A DNA stretch of 64,000 nucleotides, from positions 1-64,000 of the IMG/VR virus record IMGVR_UViG_3300035698_010466; one strand, 5' to 3'. A program made the position numbers and the translations under genes. The stretch's first letter is position 1, and every line of letters starts with the position of its first letter. Below are positions 5,134-37,363 of the stretch, piece after piece. The stretch is from a virus. Under the pieces are notes generated by a model that saw only the letters and a list, made by a program, of their open reading frames with translations, did not search any database and had not been told where the DNA came from.

Positions 5134-6252
5134 ATGATTTATTATTATAAAAGTAAATATTTTGACAGTATGATTACACCTATTTGTAATATATGTGGTC
5201 ATGATCTTGTAATAAAATATGGGTATAAAAAAAATACTATTATTAAATGTTCTAATAGTAATTGTAATACCAATGTTAAAAATGTTAAGCGTATAATTTT
5301 ATATAAAGCTTTTTTACCAAAATATTTTGTCGAAGAATATAAAAAAACTTTAAATAACTTAAAATATAGTAGACCTAATTCAAAAGAATATTGGTTAAAA
5401 AAAGGTTATTCTGAAGAAGAAGCAAAAGAAAAAGTTAGCAAGATACAAAGACAAAATTCAAAAAAAGTTAAAAATAGATTTGTTCCATCACATAAAAATT
5501 TGTTAGCATTAGGATATTCATCGGATGAAATTAATAATATGCAATTATTGCCTAACTCAATAGAGTATTGGTTAAAGAAGGGCAACACTGAAAATGAAGC
5601 AAAAGAAAACATACGTATCTTTCAAACTAAAATGTCTAATAAATTTAAAGAAAAGCGAAAGTTACACCCTGAACAATATAAAGATATTTATTTAATGAAT
5701 ATTGAATATTGGTTAAAAAAAGGTTATTCAAAAAGGGAAGCAAAAGAAAAAGTTAAAGAACGACAAACAACATTTTCTTTAGATATATGTATAAAGAAAC
5801 ATGGTAAAGAAAGAGGTATTGAAATATTTAACGAACGTCAAAAAAAATGGCAAAACGCATTACGAAAAAATTTCGAGAAAGAAGGTGATGGTAGGTCTTT
5901 ACAAAGTAAATGGGCAAATAATTTAATTAAAAAAATATGTGAAGAATTCAATATAGAAATTCCTAAAAAAGAAAAATGGATAAATGGTGGAGATATCAGG
6001 TGTTCATATGATTTTACATATAAGAAAAAAATTATAGAATTTAATGGGGATTATTGGCATGGTAATCCTAATCTTTATAATGAAAATGATAAAATTATAA
6101 ATCAATTAGTAAAAGAACGATGGGAATATGATACTCGTAAAATAGATTTAGCTAAAAGTAGAGGATATGATGTATTAGTTATATGGGAATATGATTATAA
6201 TAATCATCCAAATTTAACATTTAAGAAATGTATAAAATTTTTAAAAAATTAA
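5134..6252 (+). CDS. homing endonuclease between the split-intein halves (DUF559/Vsr-like)
   Basis: EYWLKKGYS repeats; YDF..IIEFNGDYWHGNP..VIWEYD nuclease motif. Confidence 0.8.
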   Translation: MIYYYKSKYFDSMITPICNICGHDLVIKYGYKKNTIIKCSNSNCNTNVKNVKRIILYKAFLPKYFVEEYKKTLNNLKYSRPNSKEYWLKKGYSEEEAKEKVSKIQRQNSKKVKNRFVPSHKNLLALGYSSDEINNMQLLPNSIEYWLKKGNTENEAKENIRIFQTKMSNKFKEKRKLHPEQYKDIYLMNIEYWLKKGYSKREAKEKVKERQTTFSLDICIKKHGKERGIEIFNERQKKWQNALRKNFEKEGDGRSLQSKWANNLIKKICEEFNIEIPKKEKWINGGDIRCSYDFTYKKKIIEFNGDYWHGNPNLYNENDKIINQLVKERWEYDTRKIDLAKSRGYDVLVIWEYDYNNHPNLTFKKCIKFLKN

Positions 6253-6257
6253 AAATA

Positions 6258-7421
6258 ATGAAAAAATTTATAGAAAGTAAAAGCATTAGTAATTATCAAG
6301 TTTTAACAGATACTGGTTGGGTTGATATTGAAATGTCTCATAAAACAATAAAATATAATCTTTGGTTAATTGAAACTAAAGATAATATTATCTTAAAGGG
6401 AGCTGATAATCATATTGTATTTAATGAAAATTACGAGGAAGTTTTTATTAAAGATTTAAACCCTAATGATTATATACTTACTGATGTGGGAATTTCTAGT
6501 ATTAAAAATATAATAAAGCTTGATACTGAAGAAGAAATGTATGATTTAGAATTGTCTAATGATTCAAATCATAGGTACTATACAAATGGAATTCTTTCAC
6601 ATAATACAAGTGCAGCAAAAGCATTAGTTAATCATTTTGATTTGCCATCACTTTATATTAATGCATCAACAGATACTTCAGTTGATATTGTACGTAATAG
6701 AATTACAGATTTTTGCGCAAATCGTTCAGTAATGCATGAACCTGGAAAAATGAAAGTAATTATTCTTGATGAAATTGATGGAGTATCAGATCAATTTTTT
6801 AAAGCATTAAGGGCAACTATGGATCAATTTGCTAAAAATGCAAGATTTGTAGCAACATGCAATTACATTAATAAAGTACCTGTTCCAATTCAATCTAGAT
6901 TTGAATTAATTGATTTTGACTTCACGAAAGAAGAAGAAACTGAAATCATGAAAAAGTATATAATTCGAATTTTACAAATATGTAAAGAAGAAAATATAAA
7001 CATCGAAAAACATGCCGCAGTTGAATTAGTAAAAAGGAAATTTCCAGATTTAAGAAATATGCTTAATACAATACAAGGATTTAAATCACAAGCTAAAGAT
7101 ATCGTAACTGTTGAAGATATCAAAAAATTTAATTCAATTTATAAAGATATTTATGATCTTGCACTAGATAAAACAGACCCTGTGAAAAATTATAAATACA
7201 TGGTATCGAATTATTCTAATAAAATCGATGATGTATTATCAAGTTTAGGCGCAGAGTTCATTGAATATATTCAAGTAGAACGACCAAATTATATTTCATT
7301 TATACCACAAATAGTTGTAACCGTTGCAAAATATCAATCACAACGTTATGTTGTTATAGATCCAGTTATTTCTATGTTGGCGTGCATCTACTCTATCCAG
7401 GATATTGTCAATGGAAATTAG
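6258..7421 (+). CDS. 116-aa C-intein plus clamp loader (gp44/RFC-like) C-extein
   Basis: Block B-like ADNHI, MYDLEL...YYTNGILSHN/T splice junction, then INAS, ILDEID and SRF AAA+ motifs. Confidence 0.9.
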   Translation: MKKFIESKSISNYQVLTDTGWVDIEMSHKTIKYNLWLIETKDNIILKGADNHIVFNENYEEVFIKDLNPNDYILTDVGISSIKNIIKLDTEEEMYDLELSNDSNHRYYTNGILSHNTSAAKALVNHFDLPSLYINASTDTSVDIVRNRITDFCANRSVMHEPGKMKVIILDEIDGVSDQFFKALRATMDQFAKNARFVATCNYINKVPVPIQSRFELIDFDFTKEEETEIMKKYIIRILQICKEENINIEKHAAVELVKRKFPDLRNMLNTIQGFKSQAKDIVTVEDIKKFNSIYKDIYDLALDKTDPVKNYKYMVSNYSNKIDDVLSSLGAEFIEYIQVERPNYISFIPQIVVTVAKYQSQRYVVIDPVISMLACIYSIQDIVNGN

Positions 7422-26662: not shown

Positions 26663-27067
26663 GGGGCAGTCAAGGAATCGATTGGCAGGAGATAATATTA
26701 AGATGCAAGTAGTGTTAAATGGAAACACTTAAATAACCTATTGAACAAACAATTGACAATATTTTTACAAACGCTCAAGTTGCGTTAGCAGCTTAGCAAA
26801 TTAGCGGTAACTGCTTAGAAACAGAAAGTTACAAAATTGAGTTGGGGAAAAAGGGTTTATAGTACCCTCTTAATTCCATCAGAAACCCTGATCCTTATAC
26901 ACGGAGACAGACCAACGGGTAATTCCAGAGGAGTGCTGTAATGGAATTTGCTGAGATCAATAACTCAGTTCAAAAATAATTGGAATGTTCGGTATTCCGA
27001 ACTAAACTTGTAAACGAATCTAATATATCAAATGAGCAAGACGCGGGTTCAACTCCCGCCTGCTCCC
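26663..27067 (+). ncRNA. ssrA: tmRNA; tag (A)DNIFTNAQVALAA*
   Basis: 5' GGGGCAG pairs with CTGCTCC including G3.U70; T-arm GCGGGTTCAACTCCCGC; tag ORF 26755-26796 ends LAA. Confidence 0.9.
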
Positions 27068-27117
27068 TCATAATATTTCTGCTCTTATTTATGAATATAT
27101 AAAATAAATTATATTTA

Positions 27118-28367: not shown

Positions 28368-28389
28368 TAATTTTTAACACGAATATACA

Positions 28390-28420
28390 AGGCCTCCTAG
28401 TTATTCTGGGAGGCTTTTTT
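28390..28420 (+). terminator. intrinsic terminator
   Basis: GGCCTCCTAG-TTATT-CTGGGAGGCT followed by a T-run. Confidence 0.8.
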
Positions 28421-28444
28421 AGTTTAACTGCTTCGAAAAAAAAA

Positions 28445-28750
28445 TGAGGGTTTAGAGAAAAAGTTTCATAAATATTTTTTATTCCCAATAAAATTGATTA
28501 TATTTAATTATAATTAAAAACGGTAAAATTAAACACTGTTATAAACGTTCTTTAAAAAAATGAGGGAAATAAGAAAAAAGTTTCATAAAAATTTTTTATT
28601 CCCAATTTAATTGATTATATTTAATTATAATTAAAAACGGTAAAATTAAACACCGTAACAAACGTTCTTTAAAAAAAATGAGGGAATTAAGAAAAAAGTT
28701 TCATAAAAATTTTTTATTCCCAATTTAATTGATTATATTTATATTGTAAT
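28445..28750 (+). repeat. three tandem ~117-bp promoter units upstream of the tRNA array
   Basis: Units start at 28445, 28561 and 28679 (TGAGGG...AAAGTTTCATAAA...ATTCCCAAT...TTGATTATATTTA). Confidence 0.9.
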
Positions 28751-29167: not shown

Positions 29168-29239
29168 TGATCCATGGTGTAATCGGTAACACATAACACT
29201 TTGAATGTTAAGTACCAGGTTCAAATCCTGGTGGACCAA
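29168..29239 (+). tRNA. tRNA-Gln(TTG)
   Basis: TAACA-CTTTGAA-TGTTA; cloverleaf. Confidence 0.85.
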
Positions 29240-29318
29240 CTGAGTATCTAGATTTTTGTTTGCAAGCCCTTATTGTTACAATCGGCCGATACTAATGATA
29301 AGGAATCGAAAATACTTT

Positions 29319-29389
29319 CGCGATATAGTATAGTGGTAGTACATTGGCGTTCGAAGCTGGTGGCTCAGGTTCGATTCCTGATATCGCAA
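29319..29389 (+). tRNA. atypical tRNA, anticodon TCG (Arg?) or pseudo-tRNA
   Basis: Good D and T arms; weak G.U-rich anticodon stem; C1/A72 mismatch. Confidence 0.45.
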
Positions 29390-29406
29390 CTATTGTAACT
29401 AAACAT

Positions 29407-29480
29407 GGCCCTTTCGTCTAATAGGCTAGGACACATCTCTTTCAAGGATGAAACGCACGGATCGTAACCGGCAGGGGTCA
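29407..29480 (+). tRNA. tRNA-Glu(TTC)
   Basis: CATCT-CTTTCAA-GGATG; T-loop ATCGTAA. Confidence 0.85.
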
Positions 29481-29545
29481 CTAAATTAATCTGATGCCGT
29501 ATAAAATATCGGTAGTATCTGAGGCTAGGATTAATTTTTAAACAT

Positions 29546-29618
29546 GGATTAGTAGCTCAAATGGTAGAGCGCCGGTGTGAAGTACCGGAGGTAGGTGGAT
29601 CGTTACCACCCTATTCCA
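29546..29618 (+). tRNA. tRNA-Phe(GAA)
   Basis: CCGGT-GTGAAGT-ACCGG. Confidence 0.8.
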
Positions 29619-29844
29619 CTGCATTGATTACCGGCTACAATCATCGGTCCTTTACCCTAAATTGTTAGGGAAATAACCAAAATGGGCAAACCGGGAAGCT
29701 TTCGTAAACGTATCCAAACCCTCAGTAGGGGATACCGAAAAGAAATAAATTGTATAAGAAGCGAAAAATGGTCAACTCGAGATAAGGCCAGAGTATTGTA
29801 TGAAAAAATATCCGTAAGGAGAATAACGAAGGGGTTTTTATAAT

Positions 29845-29926
29845 GGGTACGGAAAGTCATTTCGGATATGACAATCGGTCTGTAACACCGATCCTTTGGG
29901 GCGTGGTTCGAGTCCACCCGGATCCA
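29845..29926 (+). tRNA. tRNA-Tyr(GTA)
   Basis: ATCGGT-CTGTAAC-ACCGAT; variable arm present. Confidence 0.8.
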
Positions 29927-30114
29927 CTAAAATCATGGAGTATCGAAGATAACGTAGAAGCGGTAGGATTAATTTGCAAGAAGGCCTACAACGTTTGCAA
30001 ACTCAAATTGATTTTAACTTTTAAATGATTTTAAAAAATCTGTGCTAATAATAACATGTAAAAAATTAGAACAGTTTCCTCGGGCAAGGTCTATGGAAAT
30101 ATTTAAAAGTCAAT

Positions 30115-30188
30115 ACTCTCGAAGCTCAAGTGAAAGTAGCTACGCTCTTTTAAAGCGAAGGTTGCAGGTTTGATCCCTGCGGGGAGTA
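30115..30188 (+). tRNA. tRNA-Lys(TTT)
   Basis: CGCT-CTTTTAA-AGCG. Confidence 0.75.
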
Positions 30189-30195
30189 CAAAAAA

Positions 30196-30281
30196 TTGGA
30201 AGTGATGAAATTGGCAAACATACTTCCCCAAGAGGGAAGTGGAAATATATTTCCGTAGTGGTTCGAGTCCACTCTTCCAAT
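30196..30281 (+). tRNA. tRNA-Leu (anticodon CAA or AAG, loop atypical)
   Basis: Long variable arm; CTTCC-CCAAGAG-GGAAG. Confidence 0.7.
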
Positions 30282-30490
30282 CAAATAAAATTAGTAAAGA
30301 AATCTAAATCTTGGATGGATACATCAATGTAGATTGGCAAGGATATTAATTTTATCAATAAGTAGCCGAAAGGTGTAGATAAACTAATGCATGATACGAG
30401 TACAGGGAACCAGCCCAATGACTCTACTTATGAACTTATCGCTAATAGGTTTCCACCTTGGGAAGCGTTAAATATTCCTAAACGGACCAC

Positions 30491-30560
30491 GTCTGCGTAG
30501 TGTAATGGCTAGCATATCTGACTGTCTATCAGAAGGAGGGGTTCGAATCCCACGTCGACG
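30491..30560 (+). tRNA. tRNA-Asp(GTC)
   Basis: TCTGA-CTGTCTA-TCAGA; G73. Confidence 0.75.
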
Positions 30561-30640
30561 GCTAAGTTAATAGTAAACGCACCTAACGATTCTGAAAAGA
30601 ACCGCGGACAAAATTCTTAGGTCTATTAACATTTTTAAAT

Positions 30641-30715
30641 ACCTTTGTAGGCCTCTTGGTGAGGAACTAGGCTGTCAACCTAGTAAGACAAACGGATCGT
30701 AACCGTTCAGGGGTG
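30641..30715 (+). tRNA. tRNA-Asp(GTC), second divergent copy
   Basis: CTAGG-CTGTCAA-CCTAG; G73. Confidence 0.8.
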
Positions 30716-30720
30716 CAAAT

Positions 30721-30805
30721 GTTTCTATAGTTTAATATTCGGAGTTAACCCTCCAGAAAAACACGGACTAGTACGAGCTTTAGGTTTGAAATCCTAATAG
30801 AGACA
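30721..30805 (+). other. tRNA-like RNA with a hairpin inserted in the D-loop and a degenerate anticodon arm
   Basis: GTTTCTA/TAGAGAC acceptor; GGAG-TTAACC-CTCC inside the D-loop. Confidence 0.45.
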
Positions 30806-30812
30806 CAAATAC

Positions 30813-30957
30813 CATTCTATAGTGTAAGACTAGGAACAAGTATTTAAGATAAGTATTCGACAAAGATCTATCGAAAAAAGGCTTAAAGAAAATTCTGTAC
30901 TAGAACACAACCCTCATGGGGAGGGTAGATACAGTATCAAATCTGTTAGAATGACCA
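30813..30957 (+). other. tRNA-Pro(TGG)-like RNA with a 79-nt structured D-loop
   Basis: CATTCTA/TAGAATG plus ACCA end; D-stem GTGT/ACAC; ACCCT-CATGGGG-AGGGT. Confidence 0.55.
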
Positions 30958-30958
30958 T

Positions 30959-31034
30959 CGGGTGGTAGAGGAGTCAGGTTTATCTCGGTATCTTTGGACG
31001 ATACAGCACGCAGGTTCAAATCCTGCTCACCCGA
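30959..31034 (+). tRNA. tRNA-Pro(TGG)
   Basis: GTATC-TTTGGAC-GATAC; C1-G72, A73. Confidence 0.85.
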
Positions 31035-31141
31035 CGACGGAGTTTTAATATTTTATTTTCTTCAAGTAAAGAAATTTTAAGTAGTCCTAGACAAAAGAAA
31101 TTTTAAATAAAATGATATGACTGATGGAGAGACATCAATAT

Positions 31142-31217
31142 CTGGTGGTAGAGGAGTCAGGTTTATCTCGGTATCTTTGGACGATACAGCACGCAGGTTC
31201 GAATCCTGCCTATCAGA
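31142..31217 (+). tRNA. tRNA-Pro(TGG), near-identical second copy
   Basis: Same body as the copy at 30959. Confidence 0.85.
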
Positions 31218-31582
31218 CAATTATATTAAGTTGAAAATCTAACATTGTATTATGTTATACTAAATACCTTGGTACAACATATTAAGAATTGGTATTTTAT
31301 TACAATTTCAAAACCTATGAATACGTTAGATTGATTGATGATACTATAAAAGATTCCCCAATATACCAATGGTTTCAACAGTTGCGGGGTGCGAGAAGTG
31401 TCGATACGGATTTATAACCTGTATAAATAACCTGACAGTCAACTTGGACTATTATTGTTTCATAGAGGTATGGCTTAATATAATTTTTTAAAATTATCAC
31501 AGTGGGCTGTTAATTAAAATGTTTAAAAAATATATAGATGAATTTAATCCTTTACCAGGTATTAAATACTCAATAAATTAAT

Positions 31583-31670
31583 TCTAAGGTTGCCGTAGTT
31601 GGTCGAACGGTCCAGACTGTTAATCTGGTGAGTGTAAACTCCATCGTAGGTTCGAATCCTCCCCTTAGAG
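31583..31670 (+). tRNA. tRNA-Asn(GTT) with a long variable arm
   Basis: CCAGA-CTGTTAA-TCTGG; variable arm GAGT-GTAA-ACTC. Confidence 0.75.
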
Positions 31671-31706
31671 CGCAAATAGAAATCTTTAAAGATTTCAAAA
31701 ATATAT

Positions 31707-31782
31707 TGCGGGATGGTAGCAGATGGTTTAGCTCACCGGGCTCATAACCCGGAGGTCGGGGGTTCAAGTCCCTCTCCCGCAA
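31707..31782 (+). tRNA. tRNA-Met(CAT), initiator-type
   Basis: CCGGG-CTCATAA-CCCGG with three G-C pairs. Confidence 0.85.
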
Positions 31783-32018
31783 CTTTAAACATTTCTGACA
31801 CATTAATGAATTTATATGTTGTGCGTATTGTTAAATCAGACAAGCTATAATGCTGTTTAGGGATAGTTTTATAGTATACATACTAATTTTCTGGTCTCCC
31901 TAAGATTAGAAAATGTTAACGTGGTTTTATAATATACTTGGAAAGTTAAAGAGCGGACATAGATCCGTAAACTTTAACGATATAGGGTTCGAGTCCCTTG
32001 TGGAACACTATTTAATAC

Positions 32019-32092
32019 GGGTCTTTAGCTTAGTAGGTTAAAGCAGTTGACTCATAATCAAAAGATCGCAGGTTCGATTCCTGCAAGGCCCA
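32019..32092 (+). tRNA. tRNA(CAT), probably Ile2
   Basis: GGGTCTT acceptor typical of Ile2; TTGA-CTCATAA-TCAA. Confidence 0.8.
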
Positions 32093-32273
32093 CTTAATTC
32101 TTACATAAGGTACATTAGCAGTACTGAAAGAACTCTTAACTCTCACAGGATCGCAACCTTTAATGAGAGCTTTAAATGGCTTAAGAGATAATGTTGGAGT
32201 CCCTGCTCTATCATGCATGGTAACAGGTTATAGGGAACAAACTATAGGTAAAAACTCGACAGAAGAATTATAT

Positions 32274-32358
32274 GGAAGGCATCCGGAAGGCATGAGGAGC
32301 TGCTCTTGAAAAGCAGTAATGGGTAAGACCATCGGGGGTTCGAATCCGCCGTCTTCCT
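32274..32358 (+). tRNA. tRNA-Ser(TGA)
   Basis: CTGCT-CTTGAAA-AGCAG; variable arm. Confidence 0.85.
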
Positions 32359-32534
32359 CAAACATTTTTAAAGTTATAAGCTAGTAAGGTCTGGGCGAAT
32401 GGACACCAGGTTACCCCAATAGACAGATTTTAAAAATGGGAATATTATCTTACATTCAGCTCTAATATTCTAAGTACATCAGAGGTTCAATTGGGAACAC
32501 TTAAATGTTGAATTCAAAACTCACTCTGATAAAC

Positions 32535-32608
32535 GCGAGTAACGCATAAATGGTGGTGCACCTGCCTTCCAAGCAGGAACAGAGTCGGTTCGATTCCGAC
32601 TATTCGCT
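32535..32608 (+). tRNA. tRNA-Gly(TCC)
   Basis: CCTGC-CTTCCAA-GCAGG. Confidence 0.85.
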
Positions 32609-32618
32609 CAAATTCATA

Positions 32619-32759
32619 AGGTTTCTTACAGCAACTAACTACTTTAAATCTGCTGCCTTAAATGGCTTACGTGGTTCGAACCCCGTTGCTCCCACTATTA
32701 AATTATCACATGGGAGTATGATGGAACTGGAAAACATGGCGGATGTAAAATAGAAACCT
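32619..32759 (+). ncRNA. TACAGCAA-family RNA containing a circularly permuted tRNA-Leu-like domain
   Basis: tRNA 3' half (32642-32694) precedes the 5' half (32712-32744), closed by AGGTTTCT/AGAAACCT. Confidence 0.65.
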
Positions 32760-32772
32760 GGAATTTATTTAA

Positions 32773-32831
32773 AGGATGCTTACAGCAAATTAAACCAAAT
32801 CAAACTTGAAAATTGAAAAACCATGCATCCT
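32773..32831 (+). ncRNA. TACAGCAA-family RNA with an anticodon-like stem-loop (CTTGAAA)
   Basis: AGGATGC/GCATCCT closing stem followed by TACAGCAA. Confidence 0.55.
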
Positions 32832-32850
32832 GAATTTTTACTTACTACAT

Positions 32851-32923
32851 GGGGAATTGGTGAAATTGGCTATCACAAGACTCTTGCAAAGTCTAGTTTC
32901 CGAATCGTACTCGGAATTCTCCA
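32851..32923 (+). tRNA. tRNA-Ala(TGC)
   Basis: AGACT-CTTGCAA-AGTCT; G3.U70. Confidence 0.85.
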
Positions 32924-32971
32924 CTATTATCGGTTCAATTTATTGTGACTCCATGAATATATAAAATAAAA

Positions 32972-33754
32972 ATGGATATAAAGTATATTTGTAAAGAATG
33001 CAATATTGAATTTAAAACATTTCAAGATAAAGCTAATCATGTTAGATGGAAACATAAAGATAATTCAAATTATTTAATAAAGGCAAGTGAATCTGCTAAA
33101 AAAGCTTGGACTAAAAAATTAGGGAAATGGGTAGATGAAACTACTGAATGTTACATATGTAAAACTATATTTGATATTAGATATAGAGAAGGAAAGAAAA
33201 AAAATAAATATTTTTGTTCAAGATCATGCGCAAATAGTAGAATTATTACTAAAAAAACTAGAGATAAAATATCTAAATCGTTAATCGGTAAACCTTCTCC
33301 ACGTATTCATTTGAACATTAAAAAAGTTTGTGGTCAATGTAATTGTGAATTTGAAGTACGTGCTACAAGAAGAAATCAAAAGTTTTGTTCTATAGAATGT
33401 TCGAATAAATTTAGAAAAAAAACTAGGTCAGAATTTGCAAATTATAAATCTGAATGTAGATTTAATTTTAATTTAGCTGATTACCCTGATGAATTTGATT
33501 TTACTTTAATAGAAAATTTTGGTTGGTATAAAGCTGCAAATAGAGGAAATAATTTAAACGGTATTAGCAGAGATCATATGATAAGTGTTAAATATGGATA
33601 TGAACATAATATCGATTCAAAATTTATTAGTCATCCTGCAAATTGTAAATTAATGAGGCATAATGATAATGTAAGTAAATATACAAAATGTTCTATTTCT
33701 CTAACAGAATTATTAAATAAAATAGAATATTGGAATAAAACATATAAAAAATAA
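32972..33754 (+). CDS. zinc-finger/HNH-type homing endonuclease within the tRNA array
   Basis: C2H2 finger, FCSRSC/FCSIEC, SRDH...HPANC...N.SK. Confidence 0.7.
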   Translation: MDIKYICKECNIEFKTFQDKANHVRWKHKDNSNYLIKASESAKKAWTKKLGKWVDETTECYICKTIFDIRYREGKKKNKYFCSRSCANSRIITKKTRDKISKSLIGKPSPRIHLNIKKVCGQCNCEFEVRATRRNQKFCSIECSNKFRKKTRSEFANYKSECRFNFNLADYPDEFDFTLIENFGWYKAANRGNNLNGISRDHMISVKYGYEHNIDSKFISHPANCKLMRHNDNVSKYTKCSISLTELLNKIEYWNKTYKK

Positions 33755-33773
33755 TAAAAGATTATTTTTAATT

Positions 33774-33849
33774 GCGATAATAGCTCAGTTGGTAGAGCAT
33801 TAGGTTGCCAATCTAAAGGTCGTGGGTTCGAATCCCATTTATCGCTCCA
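33774..33849 (+). tRNA. tRNA-Gly(GCC)
   Basis: TTAGG-TTGCCAA-TCTAA; encoded CCA. Confidence 0.88.
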
Positions 33850-33852
33850 AAC

Positions 33853-33926
33853 GCTTCCATAGTTTAGAAGGCAGAAAACCCCGGATTTGTAACCCGGAAA
33901 ACTCAGTTCGATCCTGAGTGGGAGCT
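33853..33926 (+). tRNA. tRNA-Thr(TGT)
   Basis: CCGGA-TTTGTAA-CCCGG. Confidence 0.8.
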
Positions 33927-33949
33927 CTCAAATAAATCAAAAATAGTAT

Positions 33950-34459
33950 ATGATAGGTACAATTACAATAATTCAATCTTTAATAATAGTATCATATATT
34001 ACTTTTCTTTTAATAAAATTTAAAGGACCTTTATCGTCGATATCACAATCATGGTATGCATTAAAGCCTTATAATTTAAGTTACTTATTTTATATTTTTA
34101 TGATATCATTAGGTTTATGTATGGATTTTAGACATGATCCTTTTTATTATATGTCAGGAATGGGTTTATTTTTAGTCGCAGGAGCGGCTGCATTTAGATC
34201 AAAATATAAAGGAACAAATATTCTACATTATACAGGAGTGTTATTAGCTACTGTTTTTGCTTTTTGGGGGCAATATTATAAAGTAGGTATATTACCACAG
34301 AGTATTAGTATACTCTCACTGGTCGCTCTGATATTTATCTTTTTTAGAAAGGATTATTTATGGTGGATAGAAATAGCAATATTCATATCAATAATGATAG
34401 GATTTGCAATACAAGATATGCGGGGTGGACTGGAGATGGTTACCAGCTCGGGCTCATAA
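33950..34459 (+). CDS. multi-pass membrane protein
   Basis: Several hydrophobic segments; SISQSWY motif; 3' end overlaps a tRNA. Confidence 0.65.
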   Translation: MIGTITIIQSLIIVSYITFLLIKFKGPLSSISQSWYALKPYNLSYLFYIFMISLGLCMDFRHDPFYYMSGMGLFLVAGAAAFRSKYKGTNILHYTGVLLATVFAFWGQYYKVGILPQSISILSLVALIFIFFRKDYLWWIEIAIFISIMIGFAIQDMRGGLEMVTSSGS

Positions 34460-34497
34460 CCCGAACGACGAAGGTTCGATTCCTTCCCCCGCACCCA
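34419..34497 (+). tRNA. tRNA-Met(CAT), initiator-type second copy
   Basis: TCGGG-CTCATAA-CCCGA. Confidence 0.8.
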
Positions 34498-34538
34498 TAA
34501 CGCGGTTAGAGTTTCGCGTTTAAACAAAAACTCAAAAT

Positions 34539-34611
34539 TGACAGATAGCCCAAATGGTAGAGGGTCCGGCTGTTAACCGGAAAGATATAGGTTCGAACCC
34601 TATTCTGTCAG
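34539..34611 (+). tRNA. tRNA-Asn(GTT)
   Basis: TCCGG-CTGTTAA-CCGGA; G73. Confidence 0.85.
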
Positions 34612-34618
34612 CAAATAT

Positions 34619-34693
34619 GCTCGTGTGGTCAAAATGGTAAAGGCGCTGGTTTTAGACACCAGAGATTTGAGGGTTCGACTCCCTCCATGAGTA
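34619..34693 (+). tRNA. tRNA-Leu(TAG) with a short variable loop
   Basis: CTGGT-TTTAGAC-ACCAG. Confidence 0.75.
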
Positions 34694-34782
34694 CAAAGAA
34701 AGTAAGGTTAAAGATGATAGTCTGTAATAAAGCCGACGACTATACGAGATGCATCTCGTTTCCGGTTATCTTTCTTTCTTTA

Positions 34783-34852
34783 GATGATATAACTCAATGG
34801 GTAGAGTAGGGCTTAGCGGCCTTAGTTACAGGTTCGAATCCTGTTATCATCG
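34783..34852 (+). other. tRNA-like RNA with a 6-nt anticodon loop (identity undetermined)
   Basis: GATGATA/TATCATC acceptor, normal D and T arms, AGGGC-TTAGCG-GCCTT. Confidence 0.5.
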
Positions 34853-34872
34853 CAACAATAATATTCTGCATA

Positions 34873-34932
34873 AGGATGCCTACAGCAAACTAAACTAAAC
34901 CAAACTTTTAATTTGAAAACACTGTGTATCCT
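34873..34932 (+). ncRNA. TACAGCAA-family RNA with an anticodon-like stem-loop (CTTTTAA)
   Basis: AGGATGC/GTATCCT closing stem, TACAGCAA, CAAA-CTTTTAA-TTTG. Confidence 0.55.
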
Positions 34933-34938
34933 GTATAT

Positions 34939-35018
34939 GATCCTGTGGTGAAAATGGTAGACACGTTAGGTTTAAGCCCTAATGCTTATGCGTGCCGGTT
35001 CGAATCCGGCCAGGATTA
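34939..35018 (+). tRNA. tRNA-Leu(TAA)
   Basis: TTAGG-TTTAAGC-CCTAA. Confidence 0.85.
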
Positions 35019-35064
35019 CACGGTGGTTTTTCGAGGGTTCCACTTCAAATAAACCTGAGACCAT

Positions 35065-35139
35065 GCTCCTTTAGCTTAGTAGGTTTAAAGCGTGATTCTT
35101 ACAAAATTGAGACCGGTGGTTCGAATCCACCAGGGAGTA
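35065..35139 (+). tRNA. tRNA-Val(TAC)
   Basis: TGATT-CTTACAA-AATTG. Confidence 0.8.
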
Positions 35140-35145
35140 CAATAT

Positions 35146-35218
35146 ACACGTATAGTTCAATCGGATAGAACATATGACTACGAATCATAAGATGAGGGTT
35201 CGATTCCTTCTATGTGTA
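35146..35218 (+). tRNA. tRNA-Arg(ACG)
   Basis: TATGA-CTACGAA-TCATA. Confidence 0.85.
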
Positions 35219-35232
35219 CAATAATTACAAAT

Positions 35233-35316
35233 GCCCCTGTATCTCATCGGTCTTCTAAACCGAGTCGTTAAATGAGTAATTGGAGTGACGTGTGGGTTCG
35301 ATTCCCTCCAGGGGTT
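35233..35316 (+). tRNA. D-armless tRNA-Arg(TCT)-like RNA with an extended variable arm
   Basis: GCCCCTG/CAGGGGT, TCGGT-CTTCTAA-ACCGA, only 7 nt in place of the D-arm. Confidence 0.6.
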
Positions 35317-35407
35317 CTAAAATTCAGTTTTCTGACACCTAGGGTTAGTGAATAATTTAAAGCAGAACATAAGTGGTACACAAGTCCACGACTGAATTTT
35401 TTGACAT

Positions 35408-35478
35408 ACGTCTGTATCTTAATGGTAAAGTACTGGTCTCCAAAACCAGCAATGGGGGTTCGACTCCTCCCAGGCGTG
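35408..35478 (+). tRNA. tRNA-Trp(CCA)
   Basis: CTGGT-CTCCAAA-ACCAG. Confidence 0.85.
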
Positions 35479-35488
35479 CACATAACAT

Positions 35489-35563
35489 CGATACGTGGCC
35501 AAGTAGGTGAAGGCACCTGGCTGATAACCAGGAGATGCGCAGGTTCAATTCCTGCCGTATCGA
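35489..35563 (+). tRNA. tRNA-Ile(GAT)
   Basis: CCTGG-CTGATAA-CCAGG. Confidence 0.85.
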
Positions 35564-35568
35564 CATAA

Positions 35569-35653
35569 GGAAGGCTGACAGAAAGGTATTGTATTAGTTT
35601 GCTAAACTAAAGTCTGTGTCAAACCAGTGGGGGTTCGAATCCGCCGCCTTCCT
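35569..35653 (+). tRNA. tRNA-Ser(GCT)
   Basis: TTAGT-TTGCTAA-ACTAA; variable arm. Confidence 0.8.
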
Positions 35654-35739
35654 CAAAAAATATTTTAAAAATAATCACCCAAAAATTTTTATTTCCCAAT
35701 AAAATTGATTATATTTAATTATAATTAAAAACGGAAATA

Positions 35740-35907
35740 ATGAAAGTAACAATAATGAAAATGAAACACACCTTATTAGTTGAAGACAAAAAAGGTAAAG
35801 AGTCTCAAATTCCATTATGGGCTTTGATTGATGAATGTGGTCATACTATGATACAAGTTTATAGTAAAGAAGAACCAATAGAATTACAAAAAGAATTAGA
35901 AAAATAG
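35740..35907 (+). CDS. small hypothetical protein (55 aa) behind an early-type promoter
   Basis: Hand-translated MKVTIMKMKHTLL...ELEK*; promoter copy at 35686. Confidence 0.5.
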   Translation: MKVTIMKMKHTLLVEDKKGKESQIPLWALIDECGHTMIQVYSKEEPIELQKELEK

Positions 35908-36146
35908 AAAATTATTGATTAAGTGTACTAAGGTTCTGATACCAAGCTGTAAACGCGCAAGGAGGATATACCGACATCGCTGGTATGAGAAAACATGCTA
36001 ATCAATATATAAAAATTAATCCCGTAAAAGCAATTAAGAATGTATGCATACAATCGGTATTTTTAAGTTGCAACTTGAAGGCACCCCGTCATTGATGGTA
36101 CTAATGTTCGACTCATTGGCAATGAATTAATTGTGAGGGATTATAT

Positions 36147-36220
36147 GGCGAGGTAGCTTAGTTGGTCAGAGCGTCGGAATCATAACCCGAAGGTCACCGG
36201 TTCGAAACCGGTCCTCGCTA
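36147..36220 (+). tRNA. tRNA-Met(CAT), elongator-type
   Basis: GGCGAGG acceptor; TCGG-AATCATAAC-CCGA. Confidence 0.8.
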
Positions 36221-36223
36221 CAT

Positions 36224-36421
36224 TAAAAGAATGTCCATCGCTCGTAAGAGAGGAAGTTCAGGACATCGCAGTTTAAGGCAGGAGATTCAACGCTTATCGG
36301 AATCGTTCGTACTGCCGAGGATGCAACTTCAAAACAGCTTAGAGGATGAACTGCTCATAAAGCAAGGTAGAAGGCAAAGATAAATGATGGACCACGACAG
36401 GATCCTGGCTATATTCTTTTA
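36224..36421 (+). ncRNA. rnpB: minimal RNase P RNA (~198 nt)
   Basis: P1 TAAAAGAAT/ATTCTTTTA, P2 GTCCATC/GATGGAC, GAGGAAGTTCAGG (CR-I), AGCAAG, AGATAAATG, ACAGGATCCTGGCTATA (CR-V). Confidence 0.75.
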
Positions 36422-36543
36422 AAAATTAAATTGAGTGGTAGTAGGACGGAATATTGTAGGTTGCTGGACACAAACCGCAATAAAGGTAAAGCTCTAAATT
36501 GTAAAATCCAGTAAGGGCGAATAAAGTAACTCAATTTTTATAT

Positions 36544-36618
36544 GGTGTTTGAAGCATTAAGGTGATGCGTCTGACTGTGACTCAGAAGAACTTGGATCAA
36601 TACCAAGCTAATACCCCA
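36544..36618 (+). tRNA. tRNA-His(GTG)
   Basis: G-1, TCTGA-CTGTGAC-TCAGA, CCCA end. Confidence 0.8.
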
Positions 36619-36652
36619 ATTTAATAAGTATAAATATTTTAAATTAATTAAC

Positions 36653-37162
36653 ATGAGCAAGTATACAAAAACATTAGTCGTTGATAATAGTTATATTCCA
36701 CGAAGTATAATTCGTACAGAAAGAGCCTTTGTTATTTCATATAAAGGAAATGCTGATGTTATTGCAGAACATCCAGAATCATTTAAGTTAGTTAATCCTA
36801 ATTTAGATATTTTAAAGCCATCAATAATTAAAGTACACAGATTTATTAATTCTCCATTTTATAAAGTTCCTTTAACAAGAGTGAATGTTTTTAGACGTGA
36901 TAATTTTGAATGTGTATATTGTGGAAAGGGTGATCATAAAAAAGAATTAACTCTTGACCACGTAATTCCTAAATCAAAGGGTGGTCCAGATTCTTGGGAT
37001 AATTTAGTAACTGCATGCAAATCATGTAATATCGAAAAATCTGATTTAACTTTAGAAGAATGGGGTAAGGAAATTCCTAAACCACATAGACCACATTATT
37101 TAATGTTAATAAAAAAATTAGATTATGTTCCAGAAGAATGGAAAAAATACTTATTATTCTAA
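36653..37162 (+). CDS. HNH endonuclease (McrA-like)
   Basis: RDNFECVYCG...LTLDHVIPKSKGG..SWDNLVTACKSCN..K. Confidence 0.9.
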   Translation: MSKYTKTLVVDNSYIPRSIIRTERAFVISYKGNADVIAEHPESFKLVNPNLDILKPSIIKVHRFINSPFYKVPLTRVNVFRRDNFECVYCGKGDHKKELTLDHVIPKSKGGPDSWDNLVTACKSCNIEKSDLTLEEWGKEIPKPHRPHYLMLIKKLDYVPEEWKKYLLF

Positions 37163-37191
37163 ACAAAGCCTGATTAATTTCAGGTTTTTAT

Positions 37192-37272
37192 GAAGGTGTA
37201 CCTAAGCGGCCAAAGGGGATGGATTGCAAATTCATTGCGAAAGCTTCGTCAGTTCGAATCTGACTACCTTCT
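37192..37272 (+). tRNA. tRNA-Cys(GCA) with an extended variable arm
   Basis: ATGGA-TTGCAAA-TTCAT; U73; GC-GAAA-GC variable arm. Confidence 0.8.
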
Positions 37273-37363
37273 CTCTTTCAGAAATCATATACTTAGTTTA
37301 TATTTTAATTAAACTAATGTTAATATATGCTATATAAAAATATAGATAATTTAAAAATCCAAT

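What the first reader, a model, noticed from the sequence alone, without database searches (positions are those of the whole stretch)
32619..32759. Circularly permuted tRNA-Leu-like domain (3' half before 5' half), with possible UUA anticodon
Seen: CTTTAAA-TCTGC, variable arm GCC-TTAAAT-GGC, T-arm and TGCTCCC-A come first. After a 17-nt linker come GGGAGTA, a Leu-type D-arm and GCGGAT, all enclosed by AGGTTTCT/AGAAACCT. The halves are mutually complementary. As written, a rejoined loop would be (C/T)T-TTA-AA, i.e. ochre-reading; one extra A would make it Leu(TAA). Known: permuted tRNA genes occur in some algae and archaea, and YrlA-type Y RNAs have this permuted tRNA topology. Inference: it is either a permuted tRNA gene or a Y-RNA-like tRNA mimic.
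Basis: partly seen in the sequence, partly recalled or inferred. Interest (0 to 1): 0.8.

Follow-up and report, generated by a model that had tools for sequence, protein, structure and literature searches.

The report
Phage Y-like RNA mimicking tRNA
The 141-nt stretch between two phage tRNA genes is not a tRNA gene but a small structured RNA: a rearranged tRNA look-alike without an anticodon, mounted on a conserved "handle" that in hundreds of other phages lies beside the gene of a Ro60-shaped RNA-binding protein, which makes it a probable, apparently undescribed relative of the Ro60/Y-RNA particle.

Summary
Window 32619-32759 (+) holds the tRNA parts in the order anticodon-stem 3' strand, variable arm, T arm, acceptor 3' strand, 17-nt loop, acceptor 5' strand, D arm, anticodon-stem 5' strand, all closed by an 8-bp end stem. 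It is a member of a large family. A covariance model built without any window sequence finds it as the best hit in the 64 kb (54.6 bits, E 4e-9). The family shares a handle: a 6-7 bp covarying end stem, N-UACAGCAA, and a 3' UG. Two short paralogues lie at 32773-32833 and 34873-34934. Helices covary strongly in an independent test set (99% paired against 65% shuffled). The handle lies next to genes for a DUF2828+vWA protein, on the same strand. An AlphaFold model of that protein matches only Ro60/TROVE structures at full length. This copy is a poor tRNA: its T stem is bulged, it has no anticodon loop, and ARAGORN rejects every rejoined version. The best reading is a YrlA-like tRNA mimic, not a permuted tRNA gene. 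Weak points are that no partner gene lies in the 91-kb fragment and that no RNA data exist. This scan had already found the family on the adjacent stretch and in at least 106 other genomes. I found no paper or Rfam family describing it.

The parts
32619..32626 (+). Handle, 5' strand of the end stem (AGGUUUC plus U)
   Evidence: Pairs with 32752-32759 (8 bp; present in the MFE). The equivalent 6 pairs covary across the family, with 14-31 double changes per pair among 51 sequences, and 4 of 5 pairs covary in the independent set.
32627..32634 (+). Handle motif UACAGCAA, predicted single-stranded
   Evidence: Occurs exactly at only two other places with the same context in the window, B and C. It is the commonest non-A/T 8-mer in the 700-nt flanks of 80 DUF2828 genes that were picked by protein alone (28 loci).
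32635..32647 (+).
   Evidence: In the predicted fold, UUUA pairs with UAAA of 32746-32750, so no 7-nt loop is formed.
32648..32653 (+). Anticodon-stem 3' strand (AUCUGC)
   Evidence: Pairs with 32739-32744 (6 bp, one G-U). Present in both the MFE and the centroid structure.
32654..32668 (+). Long variable arm (GCC-UUAAAU-GGC hairpin); U32668 is at the position of nt 48
   Evidence: Hairpin present in the MFE. A class-II-like feature read directly from the sequence.
32669..32686 (+). T arm: 5-bp stem with bulged U32672, loop UUCGAAC
   Evidence: The family model aligns it as the T arm, with the U as an insertion. The T stem covaries in the family. The MFE of this copy alone does not form it.
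32687..32694 (+). Acceptor 3' strand (UGCUCCC) plus discriminator A; no CCA follows
   Evidence: 7/7 pairs with 32712-32718. All 7 acceptor pairs covary in the independent set.
32695..32711 (+). 17-nt loop that closes the acceptor stem
   Evidence: In 63 relatives the unpaired stretch here, which includes the discriminator (18 nt in this copy), is 3 to 56 nt long.
32712..32718 (+). Acceptor 5' strand (GGGAGUA)
32719..32738 (+). U8-G9, a D arm (AUG/CAU stem; loop with A14, A15, G18G19, A21) and nt 26
   Evidence: Aligned as the D arm by the family model. The D stem covaries in the family. The tertiary-contact nucleotides were read from the sequence.
32739..32744 (+). Anticodon-stem 5' strand (GCGGAU)
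   Evidence: Pairs with 32648-32653.
32745..32751 (+). A-rich 3' linker
   Evidence: An A-rich linker before the 3' stem strand is common in the family.
32752..32761 (+). Handle, 3' strand of the end stem (A plus GAAACCU) followed by GG; the U of CCU and the first G form the family's 'UG'
   Evidence: In 52 of 79 unique elements that were found without requiring it, 'TG' follows the stem.
32773..32833 (+). Paralogue B: the same handle carrying only a short hairpin with the 7-nt loop CUUGAAA (resembles a Ser-UGA anticodon loop)
   Evidence: R2 model 33.4 bits. Rfam RF01414 gives 36 bits, below its gathering score of 41.5. The loop was read from the sequence.
34873..34934 (+). Paralogue C: the same handle (CUACAGCAA) carrying a hairpin with the loop CUUUUAA (resembles a Lys-UUU anticodon loop)
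   Evidence: R2 model 30.6 bits. Sequence.

Best explanation
Element A (32619-32761, + strand) is a small non-coding RNA of the Y-RNA type, not a tRNA gene.

**Shown**
- It belongs to a large phage RNA family built from two modules.
- Module 1 is a handle: the 5' and 3' ends pair in a 6-8 bp stem, directly followed on the 5' side by N-UACAGCAA and on the 3' side by UG.
- Module 2 is exchangeable cargo. In A the cargo is a class-II-like tRNA body opened in the anticodon loop. Its acceptor stem is closed by a loop, so it has neither an anticodon nor a free CCA end.
- In other phages the handle RNAs lie directly beside, and on the same strand as, the gene of a DUF2828+vWA protein. The predicted fold of that protein is the Ro60 (TROVE+vWA) ring.

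**Inferred**
- A is cut out of the terminator-free tRNA-array transcript.
- The Ro60-like ring binds the handle.
- The tRNA-shaped cargo brings a tRNA-recognising factor to the ring, or diverts one: a host tRNA nuclease or other defence protein, a modification or processing enzyme, or a repair enzyme. The model for this is Y RNA tethering Ro60 to PNPase.
- A, B and C together would then display a tRNA body and two anticodon-loop look-alikes on one platform.
For: **Family membership**
- Model R2, built from 50 relatives and no window sequence, aligns A over its full length at 54.6 bits, E 3.7e-9, the best hit in the window. B and C follow.

**Structure**
- RNAalifold on 51 members finds the end stem, T stem, acceptor stem and D stem, with compensatory changes in 19 of 21 pairs.
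- On 17 matches from loci chosen only by the protein, 99.1% of cells pair, against 65.5% in shuffles and 37-51% when partners are slid. There are 111 double-change cells against 30.6 in shuffles.

**tRNA likeness**
- ARAGORN of 63 relatives a tRNA once the halves are rejoined.
- A keeps U8, A14, A15/U48, G18G19, A21 and UUCGA.

**Association with the protein**
- A ~485-aa DUF2828+DUF7788 protein is encoded in 39 of 119 RNA-selected loci.
- Conversely, 32 of 80 protein-selected loci carry a strict handle on the gene's strand, against 2 on the other strand and 0 after shuffling.
- UACAGCAA is the top non-A/T 8-mer in the flanks of these genes.

**Fold of the protein**
- The AF2 model has pLDDT 79.9 and pTM 0.71.
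- Its 12 best distinct PDB entries (down to rank 13 of the collapsed list) are all Ro60/TROVE: E 4e-8 to 3e-6, about 500-570 aligned columns, TM mostly 0.46-0.57 and 0.36 for D. radiodurans Rsr.

**A close relative and cultured phages**
- In G001 (topoisomerase II 76% identical) the order is HAD_SAK_2 RNA-repair domain gene, DUF2828 gene, two handle RNAs, terminator. G001 also has B/C-type RNAs in its tRNA array.
- Cultured phages have the same pairing: Felixounavirus humlepung (69 bits) and Cronobacter phage S13 (65 and 56 bits).

**Precedent**
- YrlA has the same V-T-acceptor hairpin-D order and lacks a free CCA end (PMC4201824; abstract of bioRxiv 10.1101/312249).

**Transcription context**
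- There is no + strand terminator between 28417 and 37400.
Against: - No DUF2828, TROVE, RtcB or Rnl gene lies in the 91 kb held. This is about 30% of the genome by CheckV's estimate.
- The HAD_SAK_2 orthologue of this phage (56% identical) is followed by an unrelated 190-aa ORF where relative G001 has DUF2828. This phage may therefore lack the partner.
- Binding of the handle by the protein has never been shown. It rests on gene neighbourhood alone.
- No RNA run holds the stretch, so expression and RNA ends are unknown.
- This copy is the least tRNA-like of its kind. Its T stem is bulged, its D arm is weak, and the MFE does not form the T and D arms.
- No close orthologue of A was found, so its own anticodon-stem helix has no comparative support.
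- The pattern used to collect the training set required UACAGCAA and GGTTCGAAYCC, so the invariance of those two motifs there is by construction.
Confidence: 0.62

Rival explanations
1. Two-piece tRNA-like RNA. RNase P and a 3' trimming enzyme would excise the 17-nt acceptor loop and CCA would be added. The handle and anticodon stem would then hold together two RNA pieces with a free, perhaps chargeable, acceptor end. Leu- and Ser-type synthetases do not need the anticodon. The precedent is two-piece tmRNA made from permuted genes.
For: - M. smegmatis YrlA can be cut by RNase P and receive CCA in vitro (PMC4201824, outline and section headings).
- A has a long loop of 17 nt, a 7-bp acceptor stem and an A73 discriminator.
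- CCA follows the discriminator in 6 of 63 relatives, p = 5e-4 against 1/64.
- Earlier notes on this genome, which I did not check, report a small RNase P RNA and a CCA-adding enzyme.
Against: - A itself has CUA, not CCA, after the discriminator.
- 16 of 63 relatives cap the acceptor stem with only 3-5 nt, so an open end is not a family feature.
- Rfam's permuted tmRNA model scores 13.7 bits against a gathering score of 47.
- A standard tmRNA is already present at 26663-27070.
- There are no data on RNA ends.
Confidence: 0.12
2. Decaying or orphan copy. A would be a family member that no longer works, either because its cargo has drifted or because the phage lacks the partner protein.
For: - Bulged T stem, weak D arm, rejection by ARAGORN.
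- No partner gene in the 91 kb, and the HAD_SAK_2 neighbour differs from relative G001.
- The nearest relatives by topoisomerase II (L001-L016, 77-78% identity) show no A-type element in the 10 kb upstream of that gene.
Against: - The handle, the acceptor stem (7/7), the anticodon helix and all tertiary-contact nucleotides are intact.
- Three handle RNAs are kept in one array.
- 70% of the genome is unseen.
Confidence: 0.12
3. The handle is a processing or stability module that works without the Ro60-like protein, for example a clamp that defines ends and protects small RNAs cut from tRNA arrays. On this reading, the closeness to DUF2828 genes only reflects that both sit near tRNA clusters.
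For: - In this window, and in relatives L017-L028, the handle RNAs lie inside tRNA arrays far from any DUF2828 gene.
- Many DUF2828 genes are themselves next to tRNA genes.
Against: - In protein-selected loci the handles are immediately adjacent to the gene, most often within a few hundred nt, and strand-specific: 32 loci against 2.
- In G001 two handle RNAs sit between the DUF2828 stop codon and the terminator, with no tRNA there.
Confidence: 0.08
4. True circularly permuted tRNA gene. The two halves would be rejoined at the anticodon loop to give a working tRNA that reads UAA, or Leu-UAA.
For: - The 3' half precedes the 5' half, and the two halves are complementary.
- The 7 nt before the anticodon-stem 3' strand read C-U-UUA-A-A.
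Against: - ARAGORN accepts none of five rejoined versions.
- There is no bulge-helix-bulge junction.
- No RNA ligase is found in the 91 kb.
- ORFs of the window are long and intact under table 11, and regular Leu tRNAs (UAA, UAG, AAG) are present.
- The same handle carries non-tRNA cargo in B, C and many relatives.
Confidence: 0.03
5. Chance resemblance, an assembly chimera, or the junction of two tandem tRNA genes.
For: Junctions of tandem tRNA genes do give weak hits to the family model, for example window 35092-35190 at 29 bits.
Against: - A scores 54.6 bits with a full-length alignment that includes handle and acceptor pairing.
- z = -2.8.
- Contigs of other runs reproduce the 3' two-thirds of the element.
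Confidence: 0.02

Closest known systems
YrlA-type Y RNAs with Ro60/Rsr (Salmonella, M. smegmatis, cluster C1 mycobacteriophages; Chen et al. 2014, PMC4201824; Rfam RF02553)
   Same: - The RNA ends pair in a stem next to a short conserved single-stranded motif.
- The interior is a tRNA mimic in the order V arm, T arm, closed acceptor hairpin, D arm, with no free CCA end.
- The gene lies near, and on the strand of, a ring-shaped TROVE+vWA-fold protein gene.
- A shorter partner RNA without the tRNA part accompanies it, as YrlB accompanies YrlA; here that role falls to B and C.
   Different: - The motif is UACAGCAA rather than GNCGAAN0-1G.
- RF02553 gives no hit on A at E<=10.
- The protein matches Pfam DUF2828+DUF7788, not TROVE.
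- The cargo is exchangeable and often keeps a complete anticodon hairpin.
- Many copies lie inside tRNA arrays.
Thermus phage phiLo Ro60 with Yrl1/Yrl2 (PMC12135203; PDB 9KOP, 9L5Y)
   Same: - A phage-encoded Ro60 ring with phage-encoded partner RNAs beside the gene.
- These structures are among the best matches of the DUF2828 model.
   Different: - phiLo Yrl RNAs were picked by the CGAA motif and a stem-bulge-stem shape.
- They carry no tRNA body and no UACAGCAA.
Bas63 gp130 (Felixounavirus; PhageMaP preprint, bioRxiv 10.1101/2024.10.10.617714)
   Same: - A Ro60-like protein encoded directly upstream of the phage tRNA genes.
- It was shown to counter the 'ppl' defence. The authors guessed that some of the 'tRNA genes' might be Y RNAs.
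- Felixounaviruses carry a DUF2828 gene followed by an A-type element.
   Different: - The preprint describes no RNA family, handle or structure.
- I did not verify by sequence that gp130 is the DUF2828 orthologue.
Class I RNAs of dictyostelid amoebae (Rfam RF01414; Kjellin et al. 2021, PMC7919456)
   Same: - A short stem joins the 5' and 3' ends.
- A conserved motif, CCUUACAGCAA, directly follows the 5' strand of that stem.
- The interior is variable, and the 3' end is C-UGU.
   Different: - Class I RNAs are eukaryotic, 42-65 nt, and have no tRNA body.
- The best phage score is 36 bits for B, and A reaches only 19.7 bits, against a gathering score of 41.5.
- The known binder is an RRM protein (Rnp1A).
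- Whether Dictyostelium has a DUF2828 protein was not testable here.
Circularly permuted tRNA genes (Cyanidioschyzon merolae and other algae, some archaea)
   Same: The 3' half is encoded before the 5' half, with a linker between the acceptor strands.
   Different: - Those genes mature through a bulge-helix-bulge junction, the splicing endonuclease and a ligase into a normal tRNA (general knowledge).
- Here there is no such junction and no ligase, and the rejoined sequence is not recognised as a tRNA.
Two-piece tmRNA from permuted ssrA genes (Rfam RF04321)
   Same: A bacterial-type tRNA-like domain encoded as T arm and acceptor 3' strand before acceptor 5' strand.
   Different: - 13.7 bits against a gathering score of 47.
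- No tag reading frame.
- The phage has an ordinary tmRNA.

Membership tests
Handle-RNA family of phages (end stem + N-UACAGCAA + 3' UG; not in Rfam 15) | Full-length match to a covariance model built from other members only | tested here: met
   R2 (50 relatives, no window sequence): 54.6 bits, E 3.7e-9, model positions 1-125, the best hit in the window.
Handle-RNA family of phages (end stem + N-UACAGCAA + 3' UG; not in Rfam 15) | End stem that covaries, the motif directly 3' of its 5' strand, and UG after its 3' strand | tested here: met
   A has AGGUUUC/GAAACCU where B has GGAUGC/GCAUCC, a compensatory difference. UACAGCAA is at 32627-32634, and CCU-GG follows the stem.
Handle-RNA family of phages (end stem + N-UACAGCAA + 3' UG; not in Rfam 15) | A DUF2828/Ro60-fold protein gene in the same genome | tested here: inconclusive
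   Absent from the 91-kb fragment, which is 30% of the genome by CheckV. Present in relative G001, with handle RNAs directly behind it.
YrlA (Rfam RF02553) | Score at or above the family's gathering score (69 bits) | tested here: not met
   No RF02553 match on 32300-33100 at E<=10. The model was working in these scans: it gave a partial 39-bit match in L265.
YrlA (Rfam RF02553) | GNCGAAN0-1G motif near the 5' end (the proposed Rsr contact) | tested here: not met
   The 5' region reads AGGUUUCUUACAGCAACUAAC. The only CGAA is in the T loop.
YrlA (Rfam RF02553) | tRNA-like domain in the order V, T, closed acceptor stem-loop, D | tested here: met
   Description in PMC4201824.
YrlA (Rfam RF02553) | Within about 4 kb of a TROVE (Ro60) gene, on the same strand | tested here: not met
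   No PF05731 match in the genome fragment.
tRNA (RF00005 / ARAGORN) | Recognised as a tRNA in native order | tested here: not met
   Not among the 30 ARAGORN or the 26 Rfam tRNA calls of the window.
Circularly permuted tRNA gene | The rejoined halves give a canonical cloverleaf with a 7-nt anticodon loop | tested here: not met
   ARAGORN finds nothing in five rejoined versions with CCA added, nor in the plain head-to-tail join.
Circularly permuted tRNA gene | Bulge-helix-bulge junction and a joining enzyme | tested here: not met
   The ends form an 8-bp stem beside a large asymmetric internal loop, roughly 16 nt on the 5' side and 2 nt on the 3' side in the predicted fold, not a 3-4-3 bulge-helix-bulge. 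No RtcB, Rnl1 or Rnl2 family match in the 91 kb (the Rnl1 control rang in no control genome, so that search is weak).
Dictyostelium Class I RNA (Rfam RF01414) | Score at or above the gathering score (41.5 bits) | tested here: not met
   A scores 19.7 bits (handle only) and B 36.0 bits. No phage locus reached the threshold.
Dictyostelium Class I RNA (Rfam RF01414) | Short end stem, the 11-nt motif CCUUACAGCAA after its 5' strand, and a 3' CUGU | tested here: inconclusive
   10 of 11 motif letters are shared (CUUACAGCAA). The 3' end is CCUGG in A, CCUGA in B and CCUGU in C. This is a resemblance of architecture, not proof of common descent.
Two-piece (permuted) tmRNA (Rfam RF04321) | Score at or above the gathering score (47 bits) | tested here: not met
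   13.7 bits, E 2.

The most novel reading that the evidence does not exclude
The stem+UACAGCAA handle would be the address label of a second, DUF2828-type branch of the Ro60 ring proteins. That branch is present in at least 710 sequenced phages, including Felix O1-type, KVP40-type, Listeria, Staphylococcus and 'Ro-like' mycobacteriophages. Phages would use it as a modular display platform: any tRNA part, whether a whole permuted body as in A or a bare anticodon arm as in B and C, can be plugged into the handle to trap or redirect host tRNA-directed defence or repair factors. The same label on the unexplained Class I RNAs of Dictyostelium would then mean that those RNAs are Y-like partners of a related eukaryotic ring protein.
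Probability: 0.2. Interest if true: 0.9.

Novelty: new variant of a known kind. Interest (0 to 1): 0.7.

Why it matters
Ro60/Y-RNA particles are known from animals, some bacteria and a few phages, yet what the tRNA-shaped half of bacterial Y RNAs does is still open.

- **Scale and tractability.** If this reading holds, a much larger and more modular branch of the system exists in phages. That branch includes easily grown ones such as Felix O1-type coliphages and Cronobacter phage S13.
- **Clean separation of roles.** The protein-binding handle and the tRNA-mimic cargo are separate modules that vary naturally. This makes the question 'what does the tRNA mimic recruit?' directly testable.
- **A functional starting point.** One published screen already ties a Ro60-like Felix O1-type protein to escape from a bacterial defence.
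- **Annotation.** These elements are unannotated or are mis-called as odd tRNAs. In phage S13, for example, 'tRNA-Ser' of 121 nt and 'tRNA-OTHER' of 113 nt overlap such an element.

Tried and rejected
- **RNA evidence.** No RNA holder is listed for 31800-35100, so expression and RNA ends could not be examined.
- **DNA contigs of two salt-lake runs.** They cover only parts of the element. Nothing covers 32608-32668.
- **Orthologues of A.** blastn against GenBank phages found only a tRNA-Gly match. An exact 21-mer of the T arm and acceptor region found nothing in IMG/VR. The 80 relatives fetched through topoisomerase II have B/C-type elements and one strong A-type element (L024 8444-8577, 83.8 bits), but no orthologue of A.
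- **'Leu-type' origin.** Global alignment of the rejoined body to the 30 window tRNAs shows no close parent; the top scores are tied among Gln, Tyr, Asn and Leu.
- **Trans anticodon stem as a family feature.** By eye, L159 and L135 can be drawn like A, but their MFE folds do not use that helix. This is left unresolved.
- **Synteny argument for a partner gene off the contig end.** Abandoned, because the only gene shared with the DUF2828 neighbourhood of G001 (HAD_SAK_2) lies elsewhere in this genome and has a different neighbour.
- **Dictyostelium link.** Neither the protein atlas nor the paper searches say whether Dictyostelium has a DUF2828 protein.
- **Literature searches.** Searches for the motif letters returned only primers. 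Burroughs & Aravind 2016 (PMC5062991) is not held.
- **Other tRNA mimics.** The newly reported skipping-rope, DUF2693-FD and salivarius-1 RNAs did not match in the Rfam scans, on the understanding, from memory and not checked here, that all three are Rfam families.
Full report
**Setting**

The window is the first 64 kb of a 90.9-kb IMG/VR virus record. CheckV rates the record 30% complete.

- It has 27% G+C, and almost all genes are on the + strand.
- It is T4-like: the topoisomerase II large and medium subunit genes lie at 37364-40584.
- A tmRNA gene lies at 26663-27070.
- An array of about 30 tRNA genes, interspersed with homing-endonuclease genes, spans 29168-37273.
- No + strand terminator-like site lies between 28417 and 37400, and promoter-like sites occur at the chance level. 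Whatever lies in the array is therefore probably transcribed with the tRNAs and cut out.

The finding sits 10 nt after tRNA-Gly(UCC), which ends at 32609, and 12 nt before a second small element.

**The observation**

- An 8-bp end stem encloses the whole element.
- Inside it, the order is: anticodon-stem 3' strand, a long variable arm, a T arm with loop UUCGAAC, acceptor 3' strand, discriminator A, a 17-nt loop, acceptor 5' strand (7/7 pairs), U8-G9, a D arm with a 3-bp stem and G18G19, then the anticodon-stem 5' strand (6 pairs).
- The nucleotides that make the tertiary contacts of a tRNA are all in place: U8, A14, A15 with U48, G18G19, A21 and U54-U55-C56.

The fold is better than chance. 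The MFE is -36.8 kcal/mol, z = -2.8, and no shuffle in 200 folds as well.

- The T stem needs U32672 bulged.
- The alleged anticodon loop CTTTAAA is not a loop. It pairs with GUAAAA on the other side, so the anticodon stem runs on as a roughly 10-bp helix towards the end stem.
- The body is class-II-like, but no tRNA of the window is its evident parent.

Directly after the 5' strand of the end stem comes U-UACAGCAA.

- The same arrangement recurs twice nearby: B at 32773-32833 and C at 34873-34934.
- Each consists of a 6-7 bp stem, N, UACAGCAA, an interior, the complementary strand and then UG.
- The stem of B and C (GGAUGC/GCAUCC, or GUAUCC in C) differs from that of A (GGUUUC/GAAACC) by compensatory changes.
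- B and C are only about 60 nt and carry no tRNA body. Each holds a short hairpin whose 7-nt loop resembles an anticodon loop: CUUGAAA in B and CUUUUAA in C.

A is therefore one of three RNAs that share a handle and differ in cargo.

**A large family**

- In 89 of the 126 matches, which were not selected for it, the 6 nt before the motif have a perfect complement 60-200 nt downstream. This gives 79 unique elements, and 52 of them are followed by TG.
- Most elements read: end stem, motif, linker, (anticodon hairpin), variable region, T arm, acceptor 3' strand, a loop of 3-56 nt, acceptor 5' strand, a textbook D arm (UAGCUCAGUGGUAGAGC and variants), an A-rich linker, end stem.
- RNAalifold on 51 of them predicts the end stem, T stem, acceptor stem and D stem, with compensatory changes in 19 of 21 pairs.
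- After the two halves are rejoined, ARAGORN of 63 a tRNA.

In the class-I-like members a complete cis anticodon hairpin is kept, so the 'cut' lies between nucleotides 26 and 27. L162 folds into a perfect permuted cloverleaf whose acceptor stem is capped by 3 nt. In A, the anticodon stem is made in trans and there is no anticodon.

**Is A a member?**

To avoid circularity, I built model R2 from 50 relatives without any window sequence. In the whole window its best hit is A: 54.6 bits, E 3.7e-9, aligned from the first to the last model position, with the bulged U treated as an insertion. B (33.4 bits) and C (30.6 bits) follow.

Weaker hits are junctions of neighbouring tRNA genes. This shows what a false positive looks like: no handle and no acceptor pairing.

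**The partner protein**

*From the RNA side.* All-against-all comparison of ORFs in the RNA-selected loci gave one dominant cluster: a roughly 485-aa protein in 39 of 119 loci, many of them only a few kb long. It is usually adjacent to the RNA and on the same strand. It matches Pfam DUF2828 and DUF7788 (a vWA-like domain with a DxSGS MIDAS motif) and gives weak hits to vWA_Ro60.

*From the protein side.* I fetched 80 loci by the protein alone.
- A strict handle search found elements on the gene's strand in 32 loci, on the other strand in 2, and in none after shuffling. Most lie directly before the start codon or after the stop codon.
- R2 found 15 further A-type elements there, all on the gene's strand.
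- On this independent set, 99.1% of cells form pairs against 65.5% in shuffles and 37-51% with slid partners. There are 111 double-change cells against 30.6.
- A blind count of 8-mers in the 700-nt flanks puts TACAGCAA first among words that are not pure A/T (28 loci), with the variant TTCAGCAA second (23 loci).

*Fold.* An AlphaFold2 model of the protein from relative G001 has pLDDT 79.9 and pTM 0.71. Its 12 best distinct PDB entries (down to rank 13 of the collapsed list) are all Ro60/TROVE structures aligned over about 500-570 columns. They include Xenopus and human Ro60, D. radiodurans Rsr and the Thermus phage phiLo Ro60. E-values run from 4e-8 to 3e-6, and TM-scores are mostly 0.46-0.57, with 0.36 for Rsr. 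Only isolated vWA domains follow.

**This phage and its relatives**

The 91 kb held have no DUF2828, TROVE, RtcB or RNA-ligase family match.

Relative G001 (topoisomerase II 76% identical, B/C-type RNAs in its array) has a DUF2828 gene preceded by a gene with the HAD domain of 'Swiss Army Knife' RNA-repair proteins. The gene is followed by two handle RNAs and a terminator.

This phage has the HAD orthologue (56% identity) at 73417-73998 of its record, but an unrelated 190-aa ORF follows it. Whether this phage encodes the ring protein therefore remains open. This is the main weakness of the functional reading for this particular copy.

**Cultured phages**

tblastn finds the protein in 710 GenBank phage records. 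These include Felixounavirus, KVP40-like Vibrio phages, Campylobacter, Listeria, Enterococcus and Staphylococcus phages, and mycobacteriophages where it is already annotated 'Ro-like RNA binding protein'.

- R2 finds an A-type element 1 kb behind the gene in Escherichia phage humlepung (69 bits).
- It finds two behind the gene of Cronobacter phage S13, a Straboviridae member (65 and 56 bits). The first overlaps features annotated as 'tRNA-Ser' of 121 nt and 'tRNA-OTHER' of 113 nt.
- The humlepung gene-plus-array segment is at least 96% identical in the 60 best of 260 matching records, and 90% or more in 219 of them, among them Felix O1 itself.

**What is known**

- **YrlA.** Chen et al. 2014 describe YrlA RNAs beside Ro60 genes in bacteria and mycobacteriophages, with the same V-T-acceptor hairpin-D order but a GNCGAA motif. 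Rfam's YrlA model does not match A.
- **phiLo.** The phiLo Ro60 paper describes CGAA-type Yrl RNAs.
- **Jumbo phages.** Iyer et al. 2021 note TROVE proteins with a 'tRNA-like partner' in a few jumbo phages.
- **Bas63 gp130.** The PhageMaP preprint shows that Bas63 gp130 counters the 'ppl' defence. It is a Ro60-like protein directly upstream of the tRNA genes of a Felix O1-type phage. The authors guess that some tRNA genes there might be Y RNAs.
- **Gaps.** No paper in the library discusses DUF2828 function. No Rfam 15 family covers the handle RNAs.
- **Class I RNAs.** The nearest Rfam model is that of the Dictyostelium Class I RNAs. These share the end stem, CUUACAGCAA and the 3' C-UGU. No phage element reaches that family's threshold, so this is a resemblance of design, not membership.

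**Mechanism**

Shown:
- the family exists and its structure is supported by covariation;
- A is a member;
- handle RNAs and the protein gene are neighbours on the same strand;
- the protein has a predicted Ro60-like fold.

Inferred:
- the ring binds the handle;
- the tRNA-shaped cargo recruits or diverts a tRNA-recognising factor.

The anticodon-like loops across the family are diverse. UUU (Lys) and UGA (Ser) are the commonest (after setting aside T loops that the script counted as CGA). This fits a display or decoy role but does not prove one.

A processed, two-piece form cannot be excluded for A, because its acceptor loop is long and CCA follows the discriminator in 6 of 63 relatives. However, loops of 3-5 nt in 16 of 63 relatives argue that a closed acceptor stem is the rule.

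**Verdict**

The same family was reported by this scan on the adjacent stretch of this genome and in at least 106 other genomes. My tests were run independently and agree with those notes.

Noticed in passing
window 28420-28740: Three tandem copies of a unit of about 125 nt (each with ...AAAAAAUGAGGG..AAGAAAAAAGUUUCAUAAA..UUUUUUAUUCCCAAU...) lie just upstream of the tRNA array, after a strong terminator at 28389-28417. They may be repeated promoters or regulatory units for the array.
   Followed up: no
window 34783-34853, 30115-30188 and 36545-36615: ARAGORN calls a tRNA with an abnormal 2-nt 'anticodon (ag)' at 34783-34853. Rfam's tRNA model hits two places that ARAGORN does not call: 30115-30188 (33.7 bits) and 36545-36615 (43.9 bits). 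The array holds several irregular tRNA-like genes.
   Followed up: no
L283 (G001:C1) 6117-6365 and L024 6271-6520: A handle RNA of about 245 nt (GGAUCG-N-UACAGCAA ... CGAUCC-UGU) whose cargo is not tRNA-like. In relative G001 it lies directly behind the DUF2828 gene. A divergent short element with UUCCGCAA in place of the motif precedes it (L283 about 6040-6110).
   Followed up: partly
L024 8444-8577, L024 7170-7228, L036 7751-7865: A subclade of relatives uses the motif variant UACUGCAA. In the flanks of DUF2828 genes the variant UUCAGCAA is almost as common as UACAGCAA (23 against 28 of 80 loci). The conserved core is therefore shorter than 8 nt.
   Followed up: partly
L284 (Cronobacter phage S13, KC954775.1) 5857-6251: Features annotated 'tRNA-Ser' (121 nt) and 'tRNA-OTHER' (113 nt) behind the DUF2828 gene overlap the first of two A-type handle RNAs there. 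They are probably mis-annotations of permuted tRNA mimics.
   Followed up: partly
G000:C1:73417-73998 (outside the window; L282 1495-2076): This phage encodes a protein with the HAD domain of 'Swiss Army Knife' RNA-repair proteins (PF18143, 80.9 bits). In relative G001 its orthologue is the gene directly upstream of DUF2828.
   Followed up: partly
L261 7294-7438: A Polynucleobacter-1 RNA (RF01718, 83 bits) lies 1.9 kb downstream of a phage DUF2828 gene. It has no handle motif.
   Followed up: no
family-wide (loci L081-L199): CCA follows the discriminator in 6 of 63 closed acceptor hairpins (p = 5e-4). The D arms fall into several tRNA-type classes. Both points suggest that the cargo is repeatedly copied from real tRNA genes.
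   Followed up: partly
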